From a virus (taxonomy: Duplodnaviria; Caudoviricetes), in the IMG/VR virus record IMGVR_UViG_3300047440_000490, positions 730 through 64,729 of that record: 64,000 nucleotides of DNA; one strand, written 5' to 3'. Positions 20,443 to 58,848 of this stretch are shown piece by piece. A program made the translations under genes and the position numbers. The notes under the pieces were generated by a model. It was given only the letters and a program-made list of their open reading frames with translations. It made no database searches and had not been told where the DNA came from. Position 1 is the stretch's first letter, and the number at the start of each line of letters is the position of its first letter.

Positions 20443-20509
20443 TTGTCCCGGTTGGACTCGAACCAACAACCTTCTTTGGCATGACGCTCTGCCGCTGAGC
20501 TACGGGACA
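20443..20509 (-). ncRNA. tRNA-like RNA with collapsed anticodon arm
   Basis: Perfect acceptor (TGTCCCG/CGGGACA), D arm and T arm (GTTGG TTCGAGT CCAAC). Only 18 nt between the D and T arms, giving at most a 2-bp stem around ATGCCAAA. Confidence 0.7.
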
Positions 20510-43908: not shown

Positions 43909-46029
43909 TTAGTCTCCTACGCTCATCGACGCCACGTTAGCATATTCCTCTTTCAATTCCGGCAAAGTTCCTTTCCGTATCTGATAGGTCTTCTCACTGC
44001 GTTCGGCCGTCACGTCCATGTGGTGGCGGGTGAAGTAAGCCATCGCCGCGGCGCGAACGCGATCGTCCTTTTTGTTTTTCTGGTGTTCGATTTTGGTTTT
44101 GCCGGCGACGGTGATCTTTCGTTCCAGATCCTGCATTTCCAGGATCAGCCATTTGCTGTTGGCCTTATACCAGCCGTTGGTCACAGCATCGATGAAACGA
44201 TTCATCAGAATCGGTACCGACCAGGTTCCGGAGTAGAAGCCGTCTTTGACGGAGTTGGTCTCAACGACTTTCTTGTTGTCGTACCGGATCATCTGATGGT
44301 GGTAGAGAAAGCCCATCATTTTCAACTGGTGCTGACAGTCATCGCCGGGCCGCTCGCGCTGCTCAATACAAAACTTCGCGCCTCGAGGATCGCGGCATTT
44401 CTTTCCGTACCATGCGCCGAGCGCCGCAGCAAATCCGACAGCTTGCGCCGGATTGACTCGCAAACTGGTGAACTCGGCAACCTGGACGTCGGGGAAATTG
44501 CCTTTCGCGCTATTGGTGACGTTGATCACCGTACGATCCTCATCGGGCTTATTCATGCCATCGGCCGTGTCGATGCCGATGGAATAATCGCGGCCAGACT
44601 TCGGTTCCTCGTAGATGATCAAACGATCCAGCCACGGCGTTTCTTCCTTTTCGCTGATCGGCAGCAACGGAACGAGGATCCAACTGTAATCTTCTCCGCG
44701 GTGGGATCGCCATTCGATCTCGATGCGATCGGCTTCGTAGTCGACCATTTCCGGATCCGGTTCGAAACCGTCGTCGATGGACTTTCCCAACACGGCGTAG
44801 GATCGAAAATCCACCTTTCGCGCTTCGGTTTGGACTTCGATGACATCGGGTCCGAACACGACGTCGTTCTTGCCGGTGAGCGCCTCTAAGTCGTCGGCCG
44901 GCATCTGCGAGGCCCAAGTCCGTTCGGTGTGTTTCTTCAGCGCCTCAAGGTAATTGAATTCCCAGAACCACTGTTGCTCGCGCGGCATGTGCCAGGTTGC
45001 GCCGGCCACTTCAGAAAGAAACGGCGTCGATCGGATGTAGAGCTCGCAGCGCTGAACGTGCTTGCGAGTTTCCTTGATCGGCATCCAGTCTTCAGGGATC
45101 GGGAACTTCTTGACCCAGTCCGCCTCCGGATACAGATCCGTTGCCAGCGGCCAGGGGATGAACAGCGGACAGAACCTGGAAATCCCCAGAGGAAACCCTT
45201 CTTTTGCGGTGCGCCAGAAGTCAGCTTGCCATCCGGTATTTCCGCCGCCGGTACCTTCGAAGACCTGGAAAAGTTTTCTCGACGGGTGAGTGGCGCGCAA
45301 TACGCCTTCCTCGATTGTCTTTTTGGGATTGGGAATATCGGCGAGCTCGGAAATATGAATCGCTGTCGGCGTCCATCCTTGCCCGATGCCGGTGGCCTGG
45401 GATCCAGACTGGATCGATAGGAGCGATCCATTGCTGAATCCCATCTGCCCGATTCGATCTTTGGTCTGTCGCGGTACCAGCCACCACGGGCAACGCTGAT
45501 AACAAATCTCGATGATGCGGCCGATCAACTCGGACTTGTCCTGCTGGACCGAAGCCATGACGGCTTGTGTGTTGGGAATGAACAGGAGCCGATGAAGGAA
45601 CAACAGCGCGGTCTCAGTCGAGATTCCGACCTGGCGCGCCTTGAGTACGAAGATTTCGATCGCGACTTCCAGGTCTTCGAAATGCGCGACAAGCTGAAAG
45701 AAGATTTCCTGCGAGATGCGTGGATCGAAGCGGAAAATGTCGCCCTTCTCATCGCAGATAAACGCGTAGCGGCTTTGGAAGTAGTGAGCGTCACAGGCAC
45801 AGATAATCTGTTCGTTCTGAACCCAGCGCTTGAGTTGACGTTTTTTGTTTTCCGTCATGCGCTGCGTGACCTGCACGTAGGAGTTTTTAGAATTGCTGAC
45901 GATCTTTGTGACTTTGTTGACGTATTCCTTGAACTCGCTGATCTGGTCGATGGTGTGATAGACCATTTCCCATTTCAGCTTTTGCGCGTAGGCGTGGAGC
46001 TTCTGTTCGATCAACCGCTTTGAGTAGAT
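43909..46029 (-). CDS. Terminase large subunit (probable ATC start at 46029; ORF track uses TTG at 46014)
   Basis: LKARQVGIST (Walker A), HISE (Walker B), EGTG, GIDTADG and KDDRV.A nuclease motifs. Confidence 0.9.
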   Translation of the reverse strand: MYSKRLIEQKLHAYAQKLKWEMVYHTIDQISEFKEYVNKVTKIVSNSKNSYVQVTQRMTENKKRQLKRWVQNEQIICACDAHYFQSRYAFICDEKGDIFRFDPRISQEIFFQLVAHFEDLEVAIEIFVLKARQVGISTETALLFLHRLLFIPNTQAVMASVQQDKSELIGRIIEICYQRCPWWLVPRQTKDRIGQMGFSNGSLLSIQSGSQATGIGQGWTPTAIHISELADIPNPKKTIEEGVLRATHPSRKLFQVFEGTGGGNTGWQADFWRTAKEGFPLGISRFCPLFIPWPLATDLYPEADWVKKFPIPEDWMPIKETRKHVQRCELYIRSTPFLSEVAGATWHMPREQQWFWEFNYLEALKKHTERTWASQMPADDLEALTGKNDVVFGPDVIEVQTEARKVDFRSYAVLGKSIDDGFEPDPEMVDYEADRIEIEWRSHRGEDYSWILVPLLPISEKEETPWLDRLIIYEEPKSGRDYSIGIDTADGMNKPDEDRTVINVTNSAKGNFPDVQVAEFTSLRVNPAQAVGFAAALGAWYGKKCRDPRGAKFCIEQRERPGDDCQHQLKMMGFLYHHQMIRYDNKKVVETNSVKDGFYSGTWSVPILMNRFIDAVTNGWYKANSKWLILEMQDLERKITVAGKTKIEHQKNKKDDRVRAAAMAYFTRHHMDVTAERSEKTYQIRKGTLPELKEEYANVASMSVGD

Positions 46030-49403: not shown

Positions 49404-49477
49404 TTGCGCGGGTACGAATTGAACGTACGGCCTTTCGCTTATAAGGCGAATGCTCTAACCAACTGAGCTACCGCGCG
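49404..49477 (-). tRNA. tRNA with UAU anticodon (nominally Ile) and fMet-like acceptor stem
   Basis: CGCGCGG TA GCTCAGTTGGTTAGAGC A TTCGC CTTATAA GCGAA AGGCC GTACG TTCAATT CGTAC CCGCGCA A. Confidence 0.9.
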
Positions 49478-49491
49478 ATTTCGACACGATA

Positions 49492-49902
49492 CTACTTCTG
49501 GTGCGTCCCTTCCACACCGCGAGCGATACGCGCTCGAGTACGACGCTGACAGCACTCCAGAAATGCTCTCAGGTGGAATAGCGCCTCTTCGTTGTCCGCA
49601 CAAGCGTACGGACCCTTCTGGAATCCTTCAAAGCGATCGATCAATATCGCGGCTTCGGCTTCGTGAGTCGTGCCGTTCACGCCGACTTCCTTGATCGGGC
49701 CGTTTTGGAACAGCCGCAGCGCATCAACGCCCGGCGAACCATGCTTGGCAGTCCAAGGGTCGGAAACGTTTGTCTGCGAATTGAACCCGGAAATCCGATA
49801 TAGGTGATTCGCGTTGCCGGCGCCGGGCTCATCCATCACTTCGATCTTCAACTGGTGGTTGGCCGAATCTCCTTGAACGATATGTGCTGTCAGTTCTCTC
49901 AA
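49492..49902 (-). CDS. tad1: Tad1-like anti-defence signal sponge
   Basis: G.A.H.Y, FQNGPIKEVGVNG.T.E, IDR.EGFQ.GPYAC..N and RT..R..RGVEGT motifs. Confidence 0.8.
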   Translation of the reverse strand: MRELTAHIVQGDSANHQLKIEVMDEPGAGNANHLYRISGFNSQTNVSDPWTAKHGSPGVDALRLFQNGPIKEVGVNGTTHEAEAAILIDRFEGFQKGPYACADNEEALFHLRAFLECCQRRTRARIARGVEGTHQK

Positions 49903-54673: not shown

Positions 54674-54847
54674 ATGAAAACGCGCGAACAGATCGAGACG
54701 GAACTGGCAAAGCTTCGGGCCCGTTTGGAAGCGGATGATTTTGACGGCGCCGAAGATAACGATGAACCAGACTGGGCCGATACCTCGAACCGGATAACAG
54801 CTCTGGAATGGATTCTCGGGATCAGCGACGACAGTGAGGGCTTGTGA
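54674..54847 (+). CDS. Hypothetical protein
   Basis: MKTREQIE...ALEWILG pattern. Confidence 0.6.
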   Translation: MKTREQIETELAKLRARLEADDFDGAEDNDEPDWADTSNRITALEWILGISDDSEGL

Positions 54848-55025
54848 CGTTCGGACAGAAGTTAACACTCGGCTTCGGGCTCGTTGTTCTGATCTGGTTT
54901 GCCGCGCTGGTGATGGTATACGGCCGCTAACACGGCGCCCGAGGGCTCGAAACCCTCGCAGCGAATCCGGAAACGTCATGATGACGCAATCCGGTATCAC
55001 GTTCGGAAAAAGGGAGAATACTCAC

Positions 55026-55874
55026 ATGTTTAACTCAACTGCTCATAACTTCACAACAGGCGCCGCCATTCGACGCAATACGCCATTGTCCTTGGATGAC
55101 ATTCGACGCGCGGCGCCGTCTGCATTCGCGACAGAGGCCTATCATGATCGATCCAACAGGTACGCTTACATTCCCACTTCGGCCGTCATCGAGGGAATGA
55201 TGTCGAATGGCTTTATGCCGTTTCAAGCTTCCCAGTCTCGTACGAAAATCGAGGATAAACGCGAGCACACAAAGCACATGATCCGGTTTCGCGCGCCTAA
55301 CGCTTCGCTCGTTGTTGGCGATTCGTTCCCTGAGATTGTCCTGATCAACTCGCACGACGGATCCAGCGCTTATAAGCTGATGGCCGGGATTTTCCGCCTT
55401 GTCTGCTCGAACGGGCTCGTTGTTGCGGATTCGATGATTGAGTCTATCCACGTCCGCCATAGCGGCAACATCATTGCCGAAGTTTCGCGCGGTACCGTTG
55501 AGCTCGTTGAGAACATGCCCAAGTGCATTGACGCTATCGAACGTTGGAAGGGAATCCAGCTCGACAGGGCCCAACAGACAGCGTATGCCGAAGCCGCGCA
55601 TCACGTACGCTTCGCGGACTCTGATGGCCATGTCAACACGCCGATCCGGCCCGAGCAGCTGCTAGGCTCGCGACGGTACGACGACAAAGGCCAGGATCTT
55701 TGGAGTACGTTCAATCGAGTGCAGGAAAACGTCATCAAAGGCGGCATTAGCGCTCGGGCCAACGGCGCCGCACGCCGAACAGGTATGCGCGAAGTAAAGG
55801 GCATTGATCAGGATGTGAAACTCAATCGCGCTTTGTGGATGCTGGCCGAAAAAATGGCCGAAATCCGCGGCTAA
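55026..55874 (+). CDS. DUF932/DUF945-family protein
   Basis: APSAFA...H..S.RY..IPT, KHMIRFR, NSHDGSS, FRLVCSNG, DLW..FN.VQE and LN.ALW motifs. Confidence 0.9.
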   Translation: MFNSTAHNFTTGAAIRRNTPLSLDDIRRAAPSAFATEAYHDRSNRYAYIPTSAVIEGMMSNGFMPFQASQSRTKIEDKREHTKHMIRFRAPNASLVVGDSFPEIVLINSHDGSSAYKLMAGIFRLVCSNGLVVADSMIESIHVRHSGNIIAEVSRGTVELVENMPKCIDAIERWKGIQLDRAQQTAYAEAAHHVRFADSDGHVNTPIRPEQLLGSRRYDDKGQDLWSTFNRVQENVIKGGISARANGAARRTGMREVKGIDQDVKLNRALWMLAEKMAEIRG

Positions 55875-57806: not shown

Positions 57807-58799
57807 TTAGGCGTTAGTTTCCGGACTAGCATTCTCCTCTTTTCCTGTCAGTGCCTTGTATGTCAGACGTTTTCCAATGACGCCTGTTAACGCCGACAAG
57901 AAACGATCCGCGTCATTTCCTTCGCGAGTATTGAAACGAAATGCCTGTTCGTCAATGTAACGAAACGCATGGAACGGCTCAATCGAAATGTAGGTGCCTT
58001 TGATTCCACGTTTGAACAGGGACCAGAAGTTTTCGATTCCGTTCGTATGAACCGCACCATCCACGTAGTATTCCGCGTGCCTCACAAAGGCGTGCTGGAA
58101 GCCATTATCGGCAAGGTGTTTGTAGGAACCGTGTTCGTCCGTATAGATGCTGGTTCCCGGTTCCACCGTGGTCTTGATGATTGCATTCACAGTCTCTTTC
58201 CATTGGTCCGGAACCACATGAGCACGAACCTTGGATTTACCCTTTTCAGTGTGTCGGGCCAGTAACCCGAAGATCGCCGTTTTGCCAGAACCACCACCAC
58301 GGTATTTCTTGGCCCGTTTGTCGGCGTGCATGTTCTTCGCGAGTCCGCCAATATAGGTTTCGTCCACCTCGACCGTTTCGCCTTCGCCGCCGATCTTCTC
58401 AAACGTGCCCTGCTGGATCGCTTCGCGGATACGATGATCCATAAACCATGCCGTCTTTTGCGTCACCTTCAAATCACGGGCCATCTCGCAGGAAGAGATA
58501 CCATTCTTGCAGTTCACGACCAGCCAGAACGCCATGAGCCATTTATCCAGGCCGATAGGTGAATCCTCGAAGATCGTTCCGACTTTGAGGGAGAACTTCG
58601 GGCGGTCGTGCCTTGCGTAGCACTTCCAGACACGCGCATTTTCCAGATAGGTCACTTCGTCGCTTCCACATCGCGGACAGATCACCTTGCCGTCGGGCCA
58701 GCGCAAATCCATCAAGAGTTTGTGGCAGTTCTGGTAATCGGCGAAATAGACCGTAGCCTGTTGAAGCGATTCGGGAAACTTTGCAGTGTTCTTAGCCAT
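57807..58799 (-). CDS. IS1595-family DDE transposase
   Basis: RWP...CP.CG Zn ribbon, VEVDETYIGG, YTDE, HTNGIENFWS..KR and FR.N motifs. Confidence 0.95.
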   Translation of the reverse strand: MAKNTAKFPESLQQATVYFADYQNCHKLLMDLRWPDGKVICPRCGSDEVTYLENARVWKCYARHDRPKFSLKVGTIFEDSPIGLDKWLMAFWLVVNCKNGISSCEMARDLKVTQKTAWFMDHRIREAIQQGTFEKIGGEGETVEVDETYIGGLAKNMHADKRAKKYRGGGSGKTAIFGLLARHTEKGKSKVRAHVVPDQWKETVNAIIKTTVEPGTSIYTDEHGSYKHLADNGFQHAFVRHAEYYVDGAVHTNGIENFWSLFKRGIKGTYISIEPFHAFRYIDEQAFRFNTREGNDADRFLSALTGVIGKRLTYKALTGKEENASPETNA

Positions 58800-58848
58800 G
58801 AATAGCACTTTACCAAATCAAGAATGGTCTGTCAAGTATATAAGTGCC

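What the first reader, a model, noticed from the sequence alone, without database searches (positions are those of the whole stretch)
49404..49477. Initiator-like tRNA with a UAU anticodon: possible phage-specific initiation or anti-defence system
Seen: C1xA72 mismatch, G2-C71, C3-G70, A73, a TTCAA T-loop and loop CT-TAT-AA, one base from the fMet CT-CAT-AA. It also has an elongator-type D stem and only the middle (G30-C40) of the three initiator G-C pairs. Known: C1xA72/G2-C71/C3-G70 are formyltransferase determinants and disfavour EF-Tu use; bacteria normally read AUA with lysidine-CAU; anticodon-mutant initiators can start at matching non-AUG codons; unmodified U34 can wobble widely. Inference: (a) an initiator that opens AUA/AUC/AUU starts such as the terminase ATC, acting as a translational late switch, or (b) a replacement initiator resistant to tRNA-fMet-cleaving toxins such as VapC, which fits its position 14 nt after tad1.
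Basis: partly seen in the sequence, partly recalled or inferred. Interest (0 to 1): 0.85.

Follow-up and report, generated by a model that had tools for sequence, protein, structure and literature searches.

The report
Isoleucine tRNA with initiator-like acceptor end
A soil phage carries a transfer RNA whose body and anticodon are those of an isoleucine tRNA for the rare AUA codon, but whose tip looks like that of the special tRNA that starts proteins, an odd hybrid whose purpose only bench tests can settle.

Summary
A 74-nt tRNA lies on the minus strand at 49477..49404, 14 nt after a Tad1 homologue. It has C1xA72, G2-C71, C3-G70, G4-C69, A73 and a UAU anticodon. Contigs from two other sequencing runs span it and are identical, so it is not a sequencing error.

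It is a hybrid. The D arm, anticodon arm and variable loop are isoleucine-type. My isoleucine covariance model beats my initiator model by 22 bits, at the low edge of the isoleucine range. The acceptor stem scores as initiator-type, outside all 89 comparison Ile tRNAs.

The proposed link to the terminase ATC start is not supported. ATC, ACG and CTG starts recur at that codon in relatives in which no Ile tRNA was found. ATA is not enriched as a start codon. The phage encodes no formyltransferase or deformylase.

No orthologue was found, so conservation cannot be tested. IMG/VR does hold phage CAU tRNAs with the same initiator-type tip on an elongator-type D arm, and one Arg(CCU) tRNA.

Best reading, at 0.5: an AUA-decoding elongator with an unusual, possibly formylatable tip. 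Initiator, anti-defence and decaying-gene readings remain open.

The parts
49404..49477 (-). tRNA gene, 74 nt, anticodon UAU (Ile, codon AUA); no CCA encoded
   Evidence: Rfam RF00005 70.5 bits. ARAGORN Ile(tat). Folds as a cloverleaf with C1 and A72 unpaired, -26.8 kcal/mol, z -2.9. My Ile model scores 86.2 bits and my initiator model 64.0 bits.
49471..49477 (-). 5' strand of the acceptor stem, C1 G2 C3 G4 C5 G6 G7
   Evidence: Read. Acceptor log-odds of initiator against Ile is +18.7 bits; the initiator mean is +22.0, the Ile mean -28.1 and the Ile maximum +10.2.
49404..49411 (-). 3' strand of the acceptor stem C66 C67 G68 C69 G70 C71 A72, plus discriminator A73
   Evidence: Read. A72 (49405) faces C1 as a mismatch. 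Identical in contigs of runs X10 and X15.
49441..49443 (-). anticodon U34 A35 U36 in the loop CUUAUAA
   Evidence: The same anticodon arm occurs in 20 bacterial tRNAs with GAU (8), UAU (11) or CAU (1) anticodons.
49492..49902 (-). upstream neighbour: Tad1 (Thoeris anti-defence 1) homologue, 136 aa; its stop ends 14 nt before the tRNA
   Evidence: PDB 8kbb E 1.2e-11, 7uav E 3.3e-06 and 8y6v gp184 E 9.7e-15. phrog_2428 E 1.7e-24. No Pfam hit.
43909..46029 (-). terminase large subunit, probable ATC start at 46029-46027 (tested for a link to the tRNA; none found)
   Evidence: phrog_5989 and phrog_2. AGGAG lies 6 nt before the ATC, and an in-frame stop lies 3 codons upstream. Homologues begin M-Y-S/A at that codon.

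Best explanation
This is a phage-encoded isoleucine tRNA that reads the rare codon AUA through a U34-A35-U36 anticodon. The host IleRS charges it and it works mainly as an elongator. It supplements a codon that this phage uses 3-4 times more often in its small accessory and early genes than in its structural genes.

It is probably co-transcribed with the tad1 anti-defence gene and cut out by RNase P and 3' processing. The host adds the CCA end.

The top of its acceptor stem (C1xA72, G2-C71, C3-G70, G4-C69, A73) is of the initiator type. This should weaken EF-Tu binding and make Ile-tRNA a possible, probably slow, substrate of the host formyltransferase. The tRNA would then be a less efficient elongator than a normal one, and a fraction of it may be formylated.

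Shown: the sequence, the fold, the Ile-type body, the initiator-type tip, and the genomic context.

Inferred: charging with Ile, use in elongation, partial formylation, and co-transcription.
For: - Body. The D arm, position 26, anticodon arm and variable loop score -26.7 bits in a log-odds of initiator against Ile. The Ile mean is -28.3 and the initiator mean +35.3.
- Anticodon arm. The exact arm AGAGCAUUCG(C/U)CU-NAU-AAGCGAAAGG occurs in 20 bacterial tRNAs with anticodons GAU (8), UAU (11) and CAU (1).
- Covariance models. Ile 86.2 bits against initiator 64.0, a difference of +22.2. The 35 Ile tRNAs give +20.4 to +49.1 and the 35 initiators -14.9 to -38.1.
- Ile identity. Of the bacterial Ile identity elements in Table 1 of PMC9976931 (passages read), A73, U12-A23, U20, U21, C29-G41, A35, U36, A37 and A38 are present.
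- Precedent. U34-A35-U36 Ile tRNAs read AUA strongly and AUG weakly in B. subtilis (PMC3919564, abstract).
- Abundance of the type.
- Codon use. AUA occurs at 6.7 per 1000 codons in the ORFs at 46-55 kb and 4.7 in the plus-strand genes at 3-19.5 kb, against 1.7 in 17 structural genes.
- Elongation with a mismatch. A CxA tRNA can still bind EF-Tu and elongate when it is not formylated (PMC6393288, passages).
- Transcription. No promoter-like or terminator-like site lies between tad1 and the tRNA.
Against: - The acceptor stem lies outside the range of all 89 comparison Ile tRNAs (+18.7 bits; Ile maximum +10.2).
- It has G4-C69, where 62 of 75 Ile(UAU) tRNAs have the Ile identity pair C4-G69. G16 is also missing.
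- The four top pairs are the ones that PMC6393288 (passages) names as Fmt determinants (1x72, 2-71, 3-70). A formylated tRNA is barred from EF-Tu.
- AUA is rare in the phage overall, at 86 of 18,571 codons in a crude ORF set, so the benefit of supplementation is small.
- No orthologue exists to show that the gene is maintained.
- The host is unknown, so its IleRS tolerance of U34 is unknown.
Confidence: 0.5

Rival explanations
1. Second initiator, or dual-use tRNA. IleRS charges it and host Fmt formylates it through the initiator-type tip. IF2 then delivers fIle-tRNA(UAU) to the P site, where it pairs with AUA by Watson-Crick pairing and with AUG by U34-G wobble. Some phage proteins would then start with formyl-isoleucine. 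This could act as a switch, or as a back-up when the host initiator is attacked.
For: - All four top acceptor pairs plus A73 match initiators.
- Fmt recognition sits in 1x72, 2-71 and 3-70, and loss of the 3 G-C pairs does not prevent formylation (PMC6393288, abstract and passages).
- IF3 accepts weak pairs at the third start-codon position, and grafting initiator elements on an elongator tRNA made a working initiator (PMC11744186, introduction passages).
- G30-C40 is kept, and 29-41 and 31-39 are still G/C pairs.
- IMG/VR holds 8 phage CAU tRNAs with the same tip on the same elongator-type D arm, 6 of them with only two of the three G-C pairs.
- 10 of 60 phage initiators have C11-G24.
- The initiator-model score of 64.0 bits is 15 bits above the phage's other two tRNAs.
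Against: - Only one of the three G-C pairs has the initiator orientation. In E. coli a 3GC mutant is formylated but inactive in initiation (PMC6393288, abstract).
- The overall model score is Ile-type (+22 bits; the hybrid CAU class scores +0.6 to +5.7).
- ATA is not enriched as a start behind SD motifs.
- The terminase's near-cognate starts recur in relatives in which no Ile tRNA was found.
- None of the 108 ORFs scanned matches a formyltransferase, a deformylase or an initiation factor.
- It is a singleton.
- From recall, not read here: Ile is a poorer Fmt substrate than Met.
Confidence: 0.15
2. Anti-defence tRNA. The unusual tip, or the whole molecule, lets the phage keep AUA decoding, or soak up an effector, when a host defence attacks tRNAs through their acceptor end or their 3' tail. 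It would be part of an anti-defence cassette with tad1.
For: - It sits 14 nt after a Tad1 homologue.
- The two closest relatives (terminase 76% identical) carry a different, aberrant 113-nt tRNA-like gene at the same place after their tad1-like gene.
- The same phage has a second tRNA-like gene with a truncated anticodon arm at 20443-20509.
- Phage tRNAs are known to counter tRNA-cleaving defences (PMC10264068, PMC11464382 and PMC11555353; search listings and abstracts only).
- Defence effectors that inspect the acceptor stem or cut the tRNA tail exist (PMC11559606 FaRel2 and PMC12851939 Cas12a3; abstracts only).
Against: - No call identified a defence known to target tRNA-Ile(AUA).
- Adjacency to tad1 is weak evidence.
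- The published cases rest on anticodon-loop changes, and here the loop is a standard Ile loop.
- Nothing here shows that the host carries such a system; the host is unknown.
Confidence: 0.15
3. A drifting or decaying accessory tRNA gene. The CxA mismatch and the odd stem are neutral or slightly harmful accidents in a recently acquired gene, noticed only because the scan looked at very many windows.
For: - It is unique to this phage. ARAGORN finds no tRNA in 59 terminase-related loci, my Ile model finds 0 hits in 60 loci, and it has no orthologue in metagenome contigs.
- The phage and its closest relatives carry aberrant tRNA-like genes.
- CxA is one substitution away from C-G or U-A, both of which occur in phage Ile(UAU) tRNAs.
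Against: - All other 20 cloverleaf pairs are intact and the Rfam score is high.
- Four separate atypical pairs would have to coincide (product about 3e-5).
- The sequence is identical in contigs from several soil and rhizosphere runs.
- 1:72 mismatches are enriched in phage Ile(UAU) tRNAs: 7 of 62 against 3 of 326 other elongators, and 4 of 42 against 3 of 281 clusters. This hints at selection rather than decay.
Confidence: 0.1

Closest known systems
Elongator tRNA-Ile with a UAU anticodon. Bacterial examples were found in Patescibacteria, Planctomycetota and others. The B. subtilis tRNA1-Ile G34U suppressor is described in PMC3919564. Many phage copies turned up.
   Same: Anticodon loop CUUAUAA, A73, U12-A23, C29-G41, an identical D arm, an anticodon arm identical to the bacterial examples, and a 5-nt variable loop. 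The Ile covariance model scores 86.2 bits.
   Different: C1xA72 instead of a pair; all 11 bacterial UAU examples are paired. G4-C69 instead of C4-G69 (62 of 75). C3-G70 (5 of 75). The acceptor log-odds lie outside the Ile range.
Bacterial and phage initiator tRNA-fMet
   Same: C1xA72, G2-C71, C3-G70, G4-C69, A73, G6-C67 and G7-C66. That is six of seven acceptor positions as in the commonest phage initiator stem CGCGGGG/CCCCGCA. G30-C40 is also shared.
   Different: The anticodon is UAU, not CAU. Positions 29-41 and 31-39 are C-G, not G-C. C11-G24 and U12-A23 replace A11-U24 (44 of 60) and G12-C23 (55 of 60). C5-G68 replaces G5-C68. The initiator model scores 64.0 bits, against 78.6-95.8 for initiators.
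Phage 'hybrid' CAU tRNAs seen here: an initiator-type acceptor on an elongator-type D arm (L349-L354, L356, L357), plus Arg(CCU) L359
   Same: The first 26 nt are nearly the same as the window's (2 differences to L356), with the same 3' end ...CGCAA. L359 shows that the tip also occurs with another non-Met, rare-codon anticodon.
   Different: Those tRNAs keep CAU and at least two of the three G-C pairs, and most encode CCA. Their Ile-minus-initiator score is +0.6 to +5.7 (L359 +8.3), against +22.2 here. I know of no description of this class; I did not search the literature for it specifically.
Engineered initiator tRNAs with changed anticodons, or initiator elements grafted on elongators (PMC11744186, introduction passages; PMC6393288)
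   Same: The same design logic: an initiator-type acceptor end combined with a non-CAU anticodon.
   Different: Those are laboratory constructs that keep the three G-C pairs. This one is natural and lacks two of them.
Phage tRNAs that neutralise tRNA-targeting defences (PMC10264068, PMC11464382, PMC11555353; abstracts only)
   Same: A phage-encoded tRNA next to an anti-defence gene.
   Different: The known cases differ from host tRNAs in the anticodon loop and act against identified nucleases. No target is known here, and the difference lies in the acceptor stem.

Membership tests
tRNA (Rfam RF00005) | Cloverleaf with conserved D and T loop residues, scoring above the gathering score of 29 bits | tested here: met
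   70.5 bits, full length 1-71. Cloverleaf minimum-free-energy fold.
Elongator tRNA-Ile (AUA-reading, UAU type) | Anticodon U34 A35 U36 with A37 and A38 | tested here: met
   Loop CUUAUAA.
Elongator tRNA-Ile (AUA-reading, UAU type) | Bacterial Ile identity elements outside the anticodon: A73, C4-G69, U12-A23, G16, U20, U21, C29-G41 (PMC9976931, Table 1) | tested here: inconclusive
   A73, U12-A23, U20, U21 and C29-G41 are present. C4-G69 is replaced by G4-C69 and G16 by U16. Those elements were defined in E. coli.
Elongator tRNA-Ile (AUA-reading, UAU type) | Scores higher with an Ile model than with an initiator model | tested here: met
   86.2 against 64.0 bits, within the Ile range of +20.4 to +49.1 but at its low edge. 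These are my own models, not tRNAscan-SE.
Elongator tRNA-Ile (AUA-reading, UAU type) | Paired 1:72, as needed for normal EF-Tu binding and Pth sensitivity | tested here: not met
   C1xA72.
Elongator tRNA-Ile (AUA-reading, UAU type) | Charged with isoleucine and used at the A site | not testable with these tools
   Needs aminoacylation and translation assays.
Bacterial initiator tRNA | Mismatch or weak pair at 1:72, with G2-C71, C3-G70 and A73 (Fmt determinants) | tested here: met
   40 of 55 phage initiators in the survey have a 1:72 mismatch.
Bacterial initiator tRNA | Three consecutive G-C pairs: G29-C41, G30-C40, G31-C39 | tested here: not met
   The stem has C29-G41, G30-C40 and C31-G39; only the middle pair fits.
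Bacterial initiator tRNA | CAU anticodon (methionine identity, AUG reading) | tested here: not met
   UAU.
Bacterial initiator tRNA | A11-U24 in the D stem | tested here: not met
   C11-G24. But 10 of 60 phage initiators also have C11-G24, so this is a weak criterion in phages.
Bacterial initiator tRNA | [quoted passage not shown] | not testable with these tools
   Needs Fmt, IF2 and reporter assays.
Phage anti-defence tRNA | Rescues infection from an identified tRNA-targeting defence | not testable with these tools
   Only the context next to tad1 is available.

The most novel reading that the evidence does not exclude
Phages carry an undescribed set of natural hybrid tRNAs that put an initiator-type acceptor end (1x72 mismatch, G2-C71, C3-G70, G4-C69, A73) on elongator bodies for rare codons. 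Examples are Ile-UAU here, Arg-CCU in L359, and CAU forms with a degenerate 3GC stem. Host Fmt would formylate this one, which would then start proteins with formyl-isoleucine at AUA or, by U-G wobble, at AUG. Alternatively, the tip removes it from the reach of an acceptor-directed host defence. The wider excess of unpaired 1:72 in phage tRNA-Ile(UAU) would belong to the same phenomenon.
Probability: 0.13. Interest if true: 0.85.

Novelty: new variant of a known kind. Interest (0 to 1): 0.5.

Why it matters
Initiator and elongator tRNAs are kept apart by a few nucleotides. Natural molecules that mix the two sets are hardly known outside the laboratory.

If this tRNA is formylated, it would be a natural case of initiation with an amino acid other than methionine, or of a phage tuning how a tRNA is shared between IF2 and EF-Tu. 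If the tip instead serves to escape a defence, it would extend phage tRNA counter-defence from the anticodon loop to the acceptor end.

If it is only an elongator, it still shows how much acceptor-stem deviation an Ile tRNA can carry. Either way, a few standard assays can test it.

Tried and rejected
- Orthologues for a conservation test. None were found. The IMG/VR scan for the anticodon arm gave 10 loci, none with this acceptor. The metagenome scan gave 1 locus, a different tRNA. The scan for CGC-starting tRNA(UAU) gave 0. The Tad1 search gave 1 locus (L326), with no tRNA by Rfam or by my Ile model.
- ARAGORN against Rfam. ARAGORN's '0 tRNAs in 59 terminase loci' missed the aberrant 113-nt tRNA-like gene that Rfam finds in L129 and L130. 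I therefore do not say the relatives have no tRNA-like gene. I say only that none has an Ile tRNA within the flanks held. About 29 of the 59 loci reach 3.6 kb upstream of the terminase, by my reading.
- Host. The phage collection gave only a 41-nt tRNA match. The IS1595-like transposase turned out to be a conserved phage gene, with one named relative at 61% identity in a Terriglobia MAG. BLAST of the tRNA against 301 genomes of that phylum gave only body matches, and the best ones I read are Arg tRNAs. So there is no host lead.
- Expression. No RNA holder was listed, so nothing can be said about expression. The four runs laid are contigs and show no variation.
- Register-shift origin. I considered that the stem arose by a register shift of the GCGCGCG/CGCGCGC stem of Patescibacteria Ile tRNAs. 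I dropped this because it needs indels on both strands plus substitutions.
- ARAGORN's 8-bp acceptor with U-1:A73. I read this as a scoring artefact of the mismatch.
- Promoters and terminators. The consensus scan found nothing above the shuffled expectation.
I did not ask for supplementary files of papers; the identity tables and tRNA lists in them might refine the Ile and Fmt determinant lists. No literature search was made for the 'hybrid' CAU class or for the 1:72 excess. My searches listed no paper whose title or abstract concerns a natural initiator-like tRNA with a UAU anticodon; that is all I can say about print.
Full report
WHAT IS THERE. The window is almost all of a 64,729-bp IMG/VR virus record with direct terminal repeats, at about 55% G+C. 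Rfam finds three tRNA-like genes, all on the minus strand. The best one is at 49477..49404, at 70.5 bits. ARAGORN names it tRNA-Ile(tat).

Read, it is CGCGCGG UA GCUC AGUUGGUUA GAGC A UUCGC CUUAUAA GCGAA AGGCC GUACG UUCAAUU CGUAC CCGCGCA A. No CCA is encoded.
- C1xA72, G2-C71, C3-G70 and A73.
- The T loop UUCAAUU and the anticodon loop CU-UAU-AA.
- C11-G24, an elongator-type D stem.
- G30-C40 as the only one of the three initiator G-C pairs in the right orientation. Positions 29-41 and 31-39 are C-G.

I add G4-C69. The RNA folds as a cloverleaf with C1 and A72 open. ARAGORN's drawing of an 8-bp stem with U-1:A73 is, I think, its way of absorbing the mismatch.

The ORF upstream (49902..49492, minus strand) is a Tad1 homologue. 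It matches solved 'Thoeris anti-defense 1' chains at E 1.2e-11, and it ends 14 nt before C1.

IS IT AN ERROR? No. Twenty-four soil and rhizosphere runs hold the stretch. Of the four that I laid, contigs of X10 and X15 span the whole tRNA with no difference, and one of X24 covers its 3' two thirds with no difference. Some of these runs may belong to one sampling campaign. They show no variation, so they confirm the letters but say nothing about selection.

WHAT KIND OF tRNA IS IT? I collected comparison sets from IMG/VR. A 15-base initiator anticodon-arm motif gave 116 loci. ARAGORN found 1018 tRNAs in the 325 sequences then held. Of these, 604 passed a strict cloverleaf parse, giving 62 unique initiators (3 G-C pairs plus CAU), 75 Ile(UAU) and 14 Ile(GAU).

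A position-by-position log-odds of initiator against Ile splits the window's tRNA cleanly:
- The acceptor stem scores +18.7 bits. The initiator mean is +22.0, the Ile mean -28.1 and the highest of the 89 Ile tRNAs +10.2.
- The rest of the body scores -26.7 bits with the anticodon and positions 29-31/39-41 left out. The Ile mean is -28.3 and the initiator mean +35.3.

Two covariance models built from these sets give 86.2 bits for Ile and 64.0 for initiator, a difference of +22.2. Thirty-five Ile tRNAs give +20.4 to +49.1 and thirty-five initiators -14.9 to -38.1. Those were training members, which flatters them. The molecule is classed as Ile, at the low edge of the Ile range.

The one scan of bacterial genomes shows that the exact anticodon arm belongs to cellular Ile tRNAs. 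It occurs in 20 tRNAs: 8 GAU, 11 UAU and 1 CAU, from Patescibacteria, Clostridia, Planctomycetota and others. All those I read have a paired or G-U 1:72. Most bacterial Ile identity elements listed in PMC9976931 (Table 1, read as passages) are present. C4-G69 and G16 are not.

HOW UNUSUAL IS THE TIP? Among the 75 other unique Ile(UAU) tRNAs:
- 1:72 is CxA in 2.
- 2:71 is G-C in 28.
- 3:70 is C-G in 5.
- 4:69 is G-C in 3, and C-G, the Ile identity pair, in 62.

The product is about 3e-5, and none of the 75 has even three of the four. No other viral tRNA(UAU) with this D arm begins with CGC (0 hits). Against a general background of 438 unique non-initiator tRNAs, the acceptor scores +10.9, and only 6 score above +10. 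Three of those are CAU tRNAs that look like degenerate initiators. So the tip is not what an Ile tRNA normally carries. I still discount for the look-elsewhere effect of a scan over very many windows.

A WIDER PATTERN. Two things in the comparison data bear on this.

First, 1:72 mismatches are commoner in phage Ile(UAU) than in other elongators. They occur in 7 of 62 unique sequences against 3 of 326 (Fisher 1.6e-4; 7e-4 without the window). Collapsed to clusters, the figures are 4 of 42 against 3 of 281. The seven are:
- CxA in L001, L008 and the window.
- UxU in a family of diverged tRNAs (L014, L042, L101, L121) whose 7:66 pair covaries while the mismatch stays.

The Ile(UAU) tRNAs were the target of the scan and the others are bystanders, so this is an uneven sample.

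Second, a scan for CGCG plus the elongator-type D arm gave 14 loci:
- Eight are CAU tRNAs with C1xA72 (L352 has C1xU72), G2-C71, C3-G70 and G4-C69. Six of them keep only two of the three G-C pairs.
- One (L359) is called Arg(CCU) by ARAGORN and has the full initiator-type tip plus CCA.
- One has a paired C1-G72.
- Four are aberrant.

The hybrid CAU class scores +0.6 to +5.7 on my Ile-minus-initiator scale, and L359 scores +8.3. The window's tRNA is about as similar to L356 (56 of 74 positions, my count) as to the Ile tRNA of L123 (57 of 74). So a family of phage tRNAs with this tip on this D arm exists, and the window's tRNA could descend from either side.

THE TERMINASE ATC. On the minus strand an AGGAG lies 6 nt before ATC (46029-46027), three codons after an in-frame stop. 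The first ATG/GTG/TTG (TTG at 46014) has no such motif. In 24 relatives examined, the protein begins M-Y-S/A-x-K/R at exactly that codon. The codon is ATG in 16, GTG in 2, TTG in 1, CTG in 1 (L135), ATC in 2 (L138, L146) and ACG in 2 (L140, L141).

The link to the tRNA fails:
- ARAGORN finds no tRNA in 59 related loci.
- My Ile model finds no hit in 60.
- The whole records behind L135 and L141 have none by Rfam.

Near-cognate starts in this gene therefore do not need a special tRNA. The normal initiator reads such codons at 0.1-1% of AUG (PMC11744186, introduction), which suits a protein needed in small amounts. UAU would also mismatch AUC at the third position. A scan for start-like sites (SD motif, 4-9 nt spacer, at least 70 open codons, within 25 codons of an upstream stop) found 25 ATG sites but only 3 ATA sites, among the lowest of all codons. 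None of the 108 ORFs scanned matches a formyltransferase, a deformylase, a synthetase or an initiation factor in Pfam.

CONTEXT. The tRNA is an accessory gene. The two closest relatives (terminase 76% identical) carry at the same spot, just after their tad1-like gene, a different 113-nt tRNA-like sequence with a long insertion. Rfam scores it at 46.4 bits and ARAGORN misses it. So the site after tad1 holds tRNA-like genes in this lineage, but not the same one.

No promoter-like or terminator-like site separates tad1 and the tRNA. AUA is rare but uneven: 1.7 per 1000 codons in 17 structural genes, 6.7 in the candidate small ORFs at 46-55 kb around the tRNA, and 4.7 in the plus-strand genes at 3-19.5 kb.

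HOW IT MOST LIKELY WORKS. By body and anticodon it should be charged by IleRS and read AUA. U34 Ile tRNAs do this with little AUG misreading in B. subtilis (PMC3919564, abstract).

The tip has consequences that are known for E. coli (PMC6393288, abstract and passages):
- The 1x72 mismatch with 2-71 and 3-70 is what Fmt recognises.
- The mismatch lowers but does not abolish EF-Tu binding.
- A CxA tRNA elongates when it is not formylated.
- A tRNA with the initiator tip but without the three G-C pairs is formylated yet inactive in initiation in wild-type cells.

Put together, the likeliest picture is an AUA elongator that binds EF-Tu less well and of which a part may be formylated. Whether that part is waste, a second initiator or beside the point cannot be told from sequence. 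I put the elongator reading at 0.5, a true initiator or dual role at 0.15, an anti-defence role of the tip at 0.15 and a drifting gene at 0.1.

VERDICT. It is a new variant of known kinds, a singleton that standard assays can test.

Noticed in passing
window 46027-46029 (-) and loci L135, L138, L140, L141, L146: The terminase large subunit gene of this phage family uses near-cognate start codons again and again at one conserved codon. The window has ATC (AGGAG 6 nt upstream). Among 24 relatives the codon is ATG in 16, GTG in 2, TTG in 1, CTG in 1, ATC in 2 and ACG in 2. This may be a way to keep terminase levels low.
   Followed up: partly
window 20443-20509 (-): A 67-nt tRNA-like gene lies 6 nt upstream of tRNA-Asn(GUU). 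Its acceptor, D and T arms are normal, but only 12 nt (UCAUGCCAAAGA) stand where the 17-nt anticodon arm should be. Rfam scores it at 50.4 bits; ARAGORN does not call it.
   Followed up: partly
L348 2231-2289 (-), L355 4651-4710 (+), L360 6517-6547 (+, cut by the locus end): Other phage contigs carry tRNA-like genes of about 59-60 nt with an initiator-type acceptor start (CGCGGGG or CGCGCTG) and a normal D arm that runs almost straight into the T arm, so the anticodon arm is missing. Together with the window's 67-nt gene, this suggests a recurrent kind of anticodon-less mini-tRNA in phages.
   Followed up: no
L130 6294-6406 (+), L129 3054-3166 (+), L188 1501-1613 (-): The closest relatives have a 113-nt tRNA-like element with a 49-nt insertion in or after the anticodon arm, directly after their tad1-like gene. 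Rfam scores it at 46.4 bits; ARAGORN misses it.
   Followed up: partly
L359 6628-6704 (-): A phage tRNA called Arg(CCU) by ARAGORN has C1xA72, G2-C71, C3-G70, G4-C69, A73 and an encoded CCA, with the unusual anticodon loop CCCCUAA. It is a second initiator-type tip on a rare-codon, non-Met anticodon.
   Followed up: partly
L014, L042 (identical tRNA in L125, L126, L127), L101, L121; also L048: A family of phage tRNA-Ile(UAU) has a U1xU72 mismatch that is kept while 7:66 and the T stem covary. Overall, 1:72 mismatches occur in 7 of 62 unique Ile(UAU) against 3 of 326 other elongators. The reason is unknown.
   Followed up: partly
L262 (497-kb viral contig): A tRNA called Ala(cgc) by ARAGORN has the acceptor CGCAAAG/CCTTGCA-A, that is C1xA72, G2-C71 and C3-G70 plus a second mismatch at 6:67. 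It lies in the same locus as an initiator.
   Followed up: no
window 57807-58808 (-): An IS1595-type transposase gene (DDE_Tnp_IS1595 E 4e-41, with its zinc ribbon) appears to be a conserved gene of this phage family rather than a recent insertion. Relatives at 91% and 84% identity lie on contigs of about 60 and 25 kb, and one hit lies on the 57,252-bp contig of L131.
   Followed up: partly
G006 contig C28, about 53.2-55.3 kb (the contig of L204): A Pyrinomonadaceae MAG contig ends in an array of at least 12 tRNA genes. One is a CAU tRNA with the same anticodon stem as the window's tRNA. The array may be a mobile element.
   Followed up: no
window 54834-55874 (+): A 346-aa protein with DUF932 (E 7e-45). 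Function not followed.
   Followed up: no
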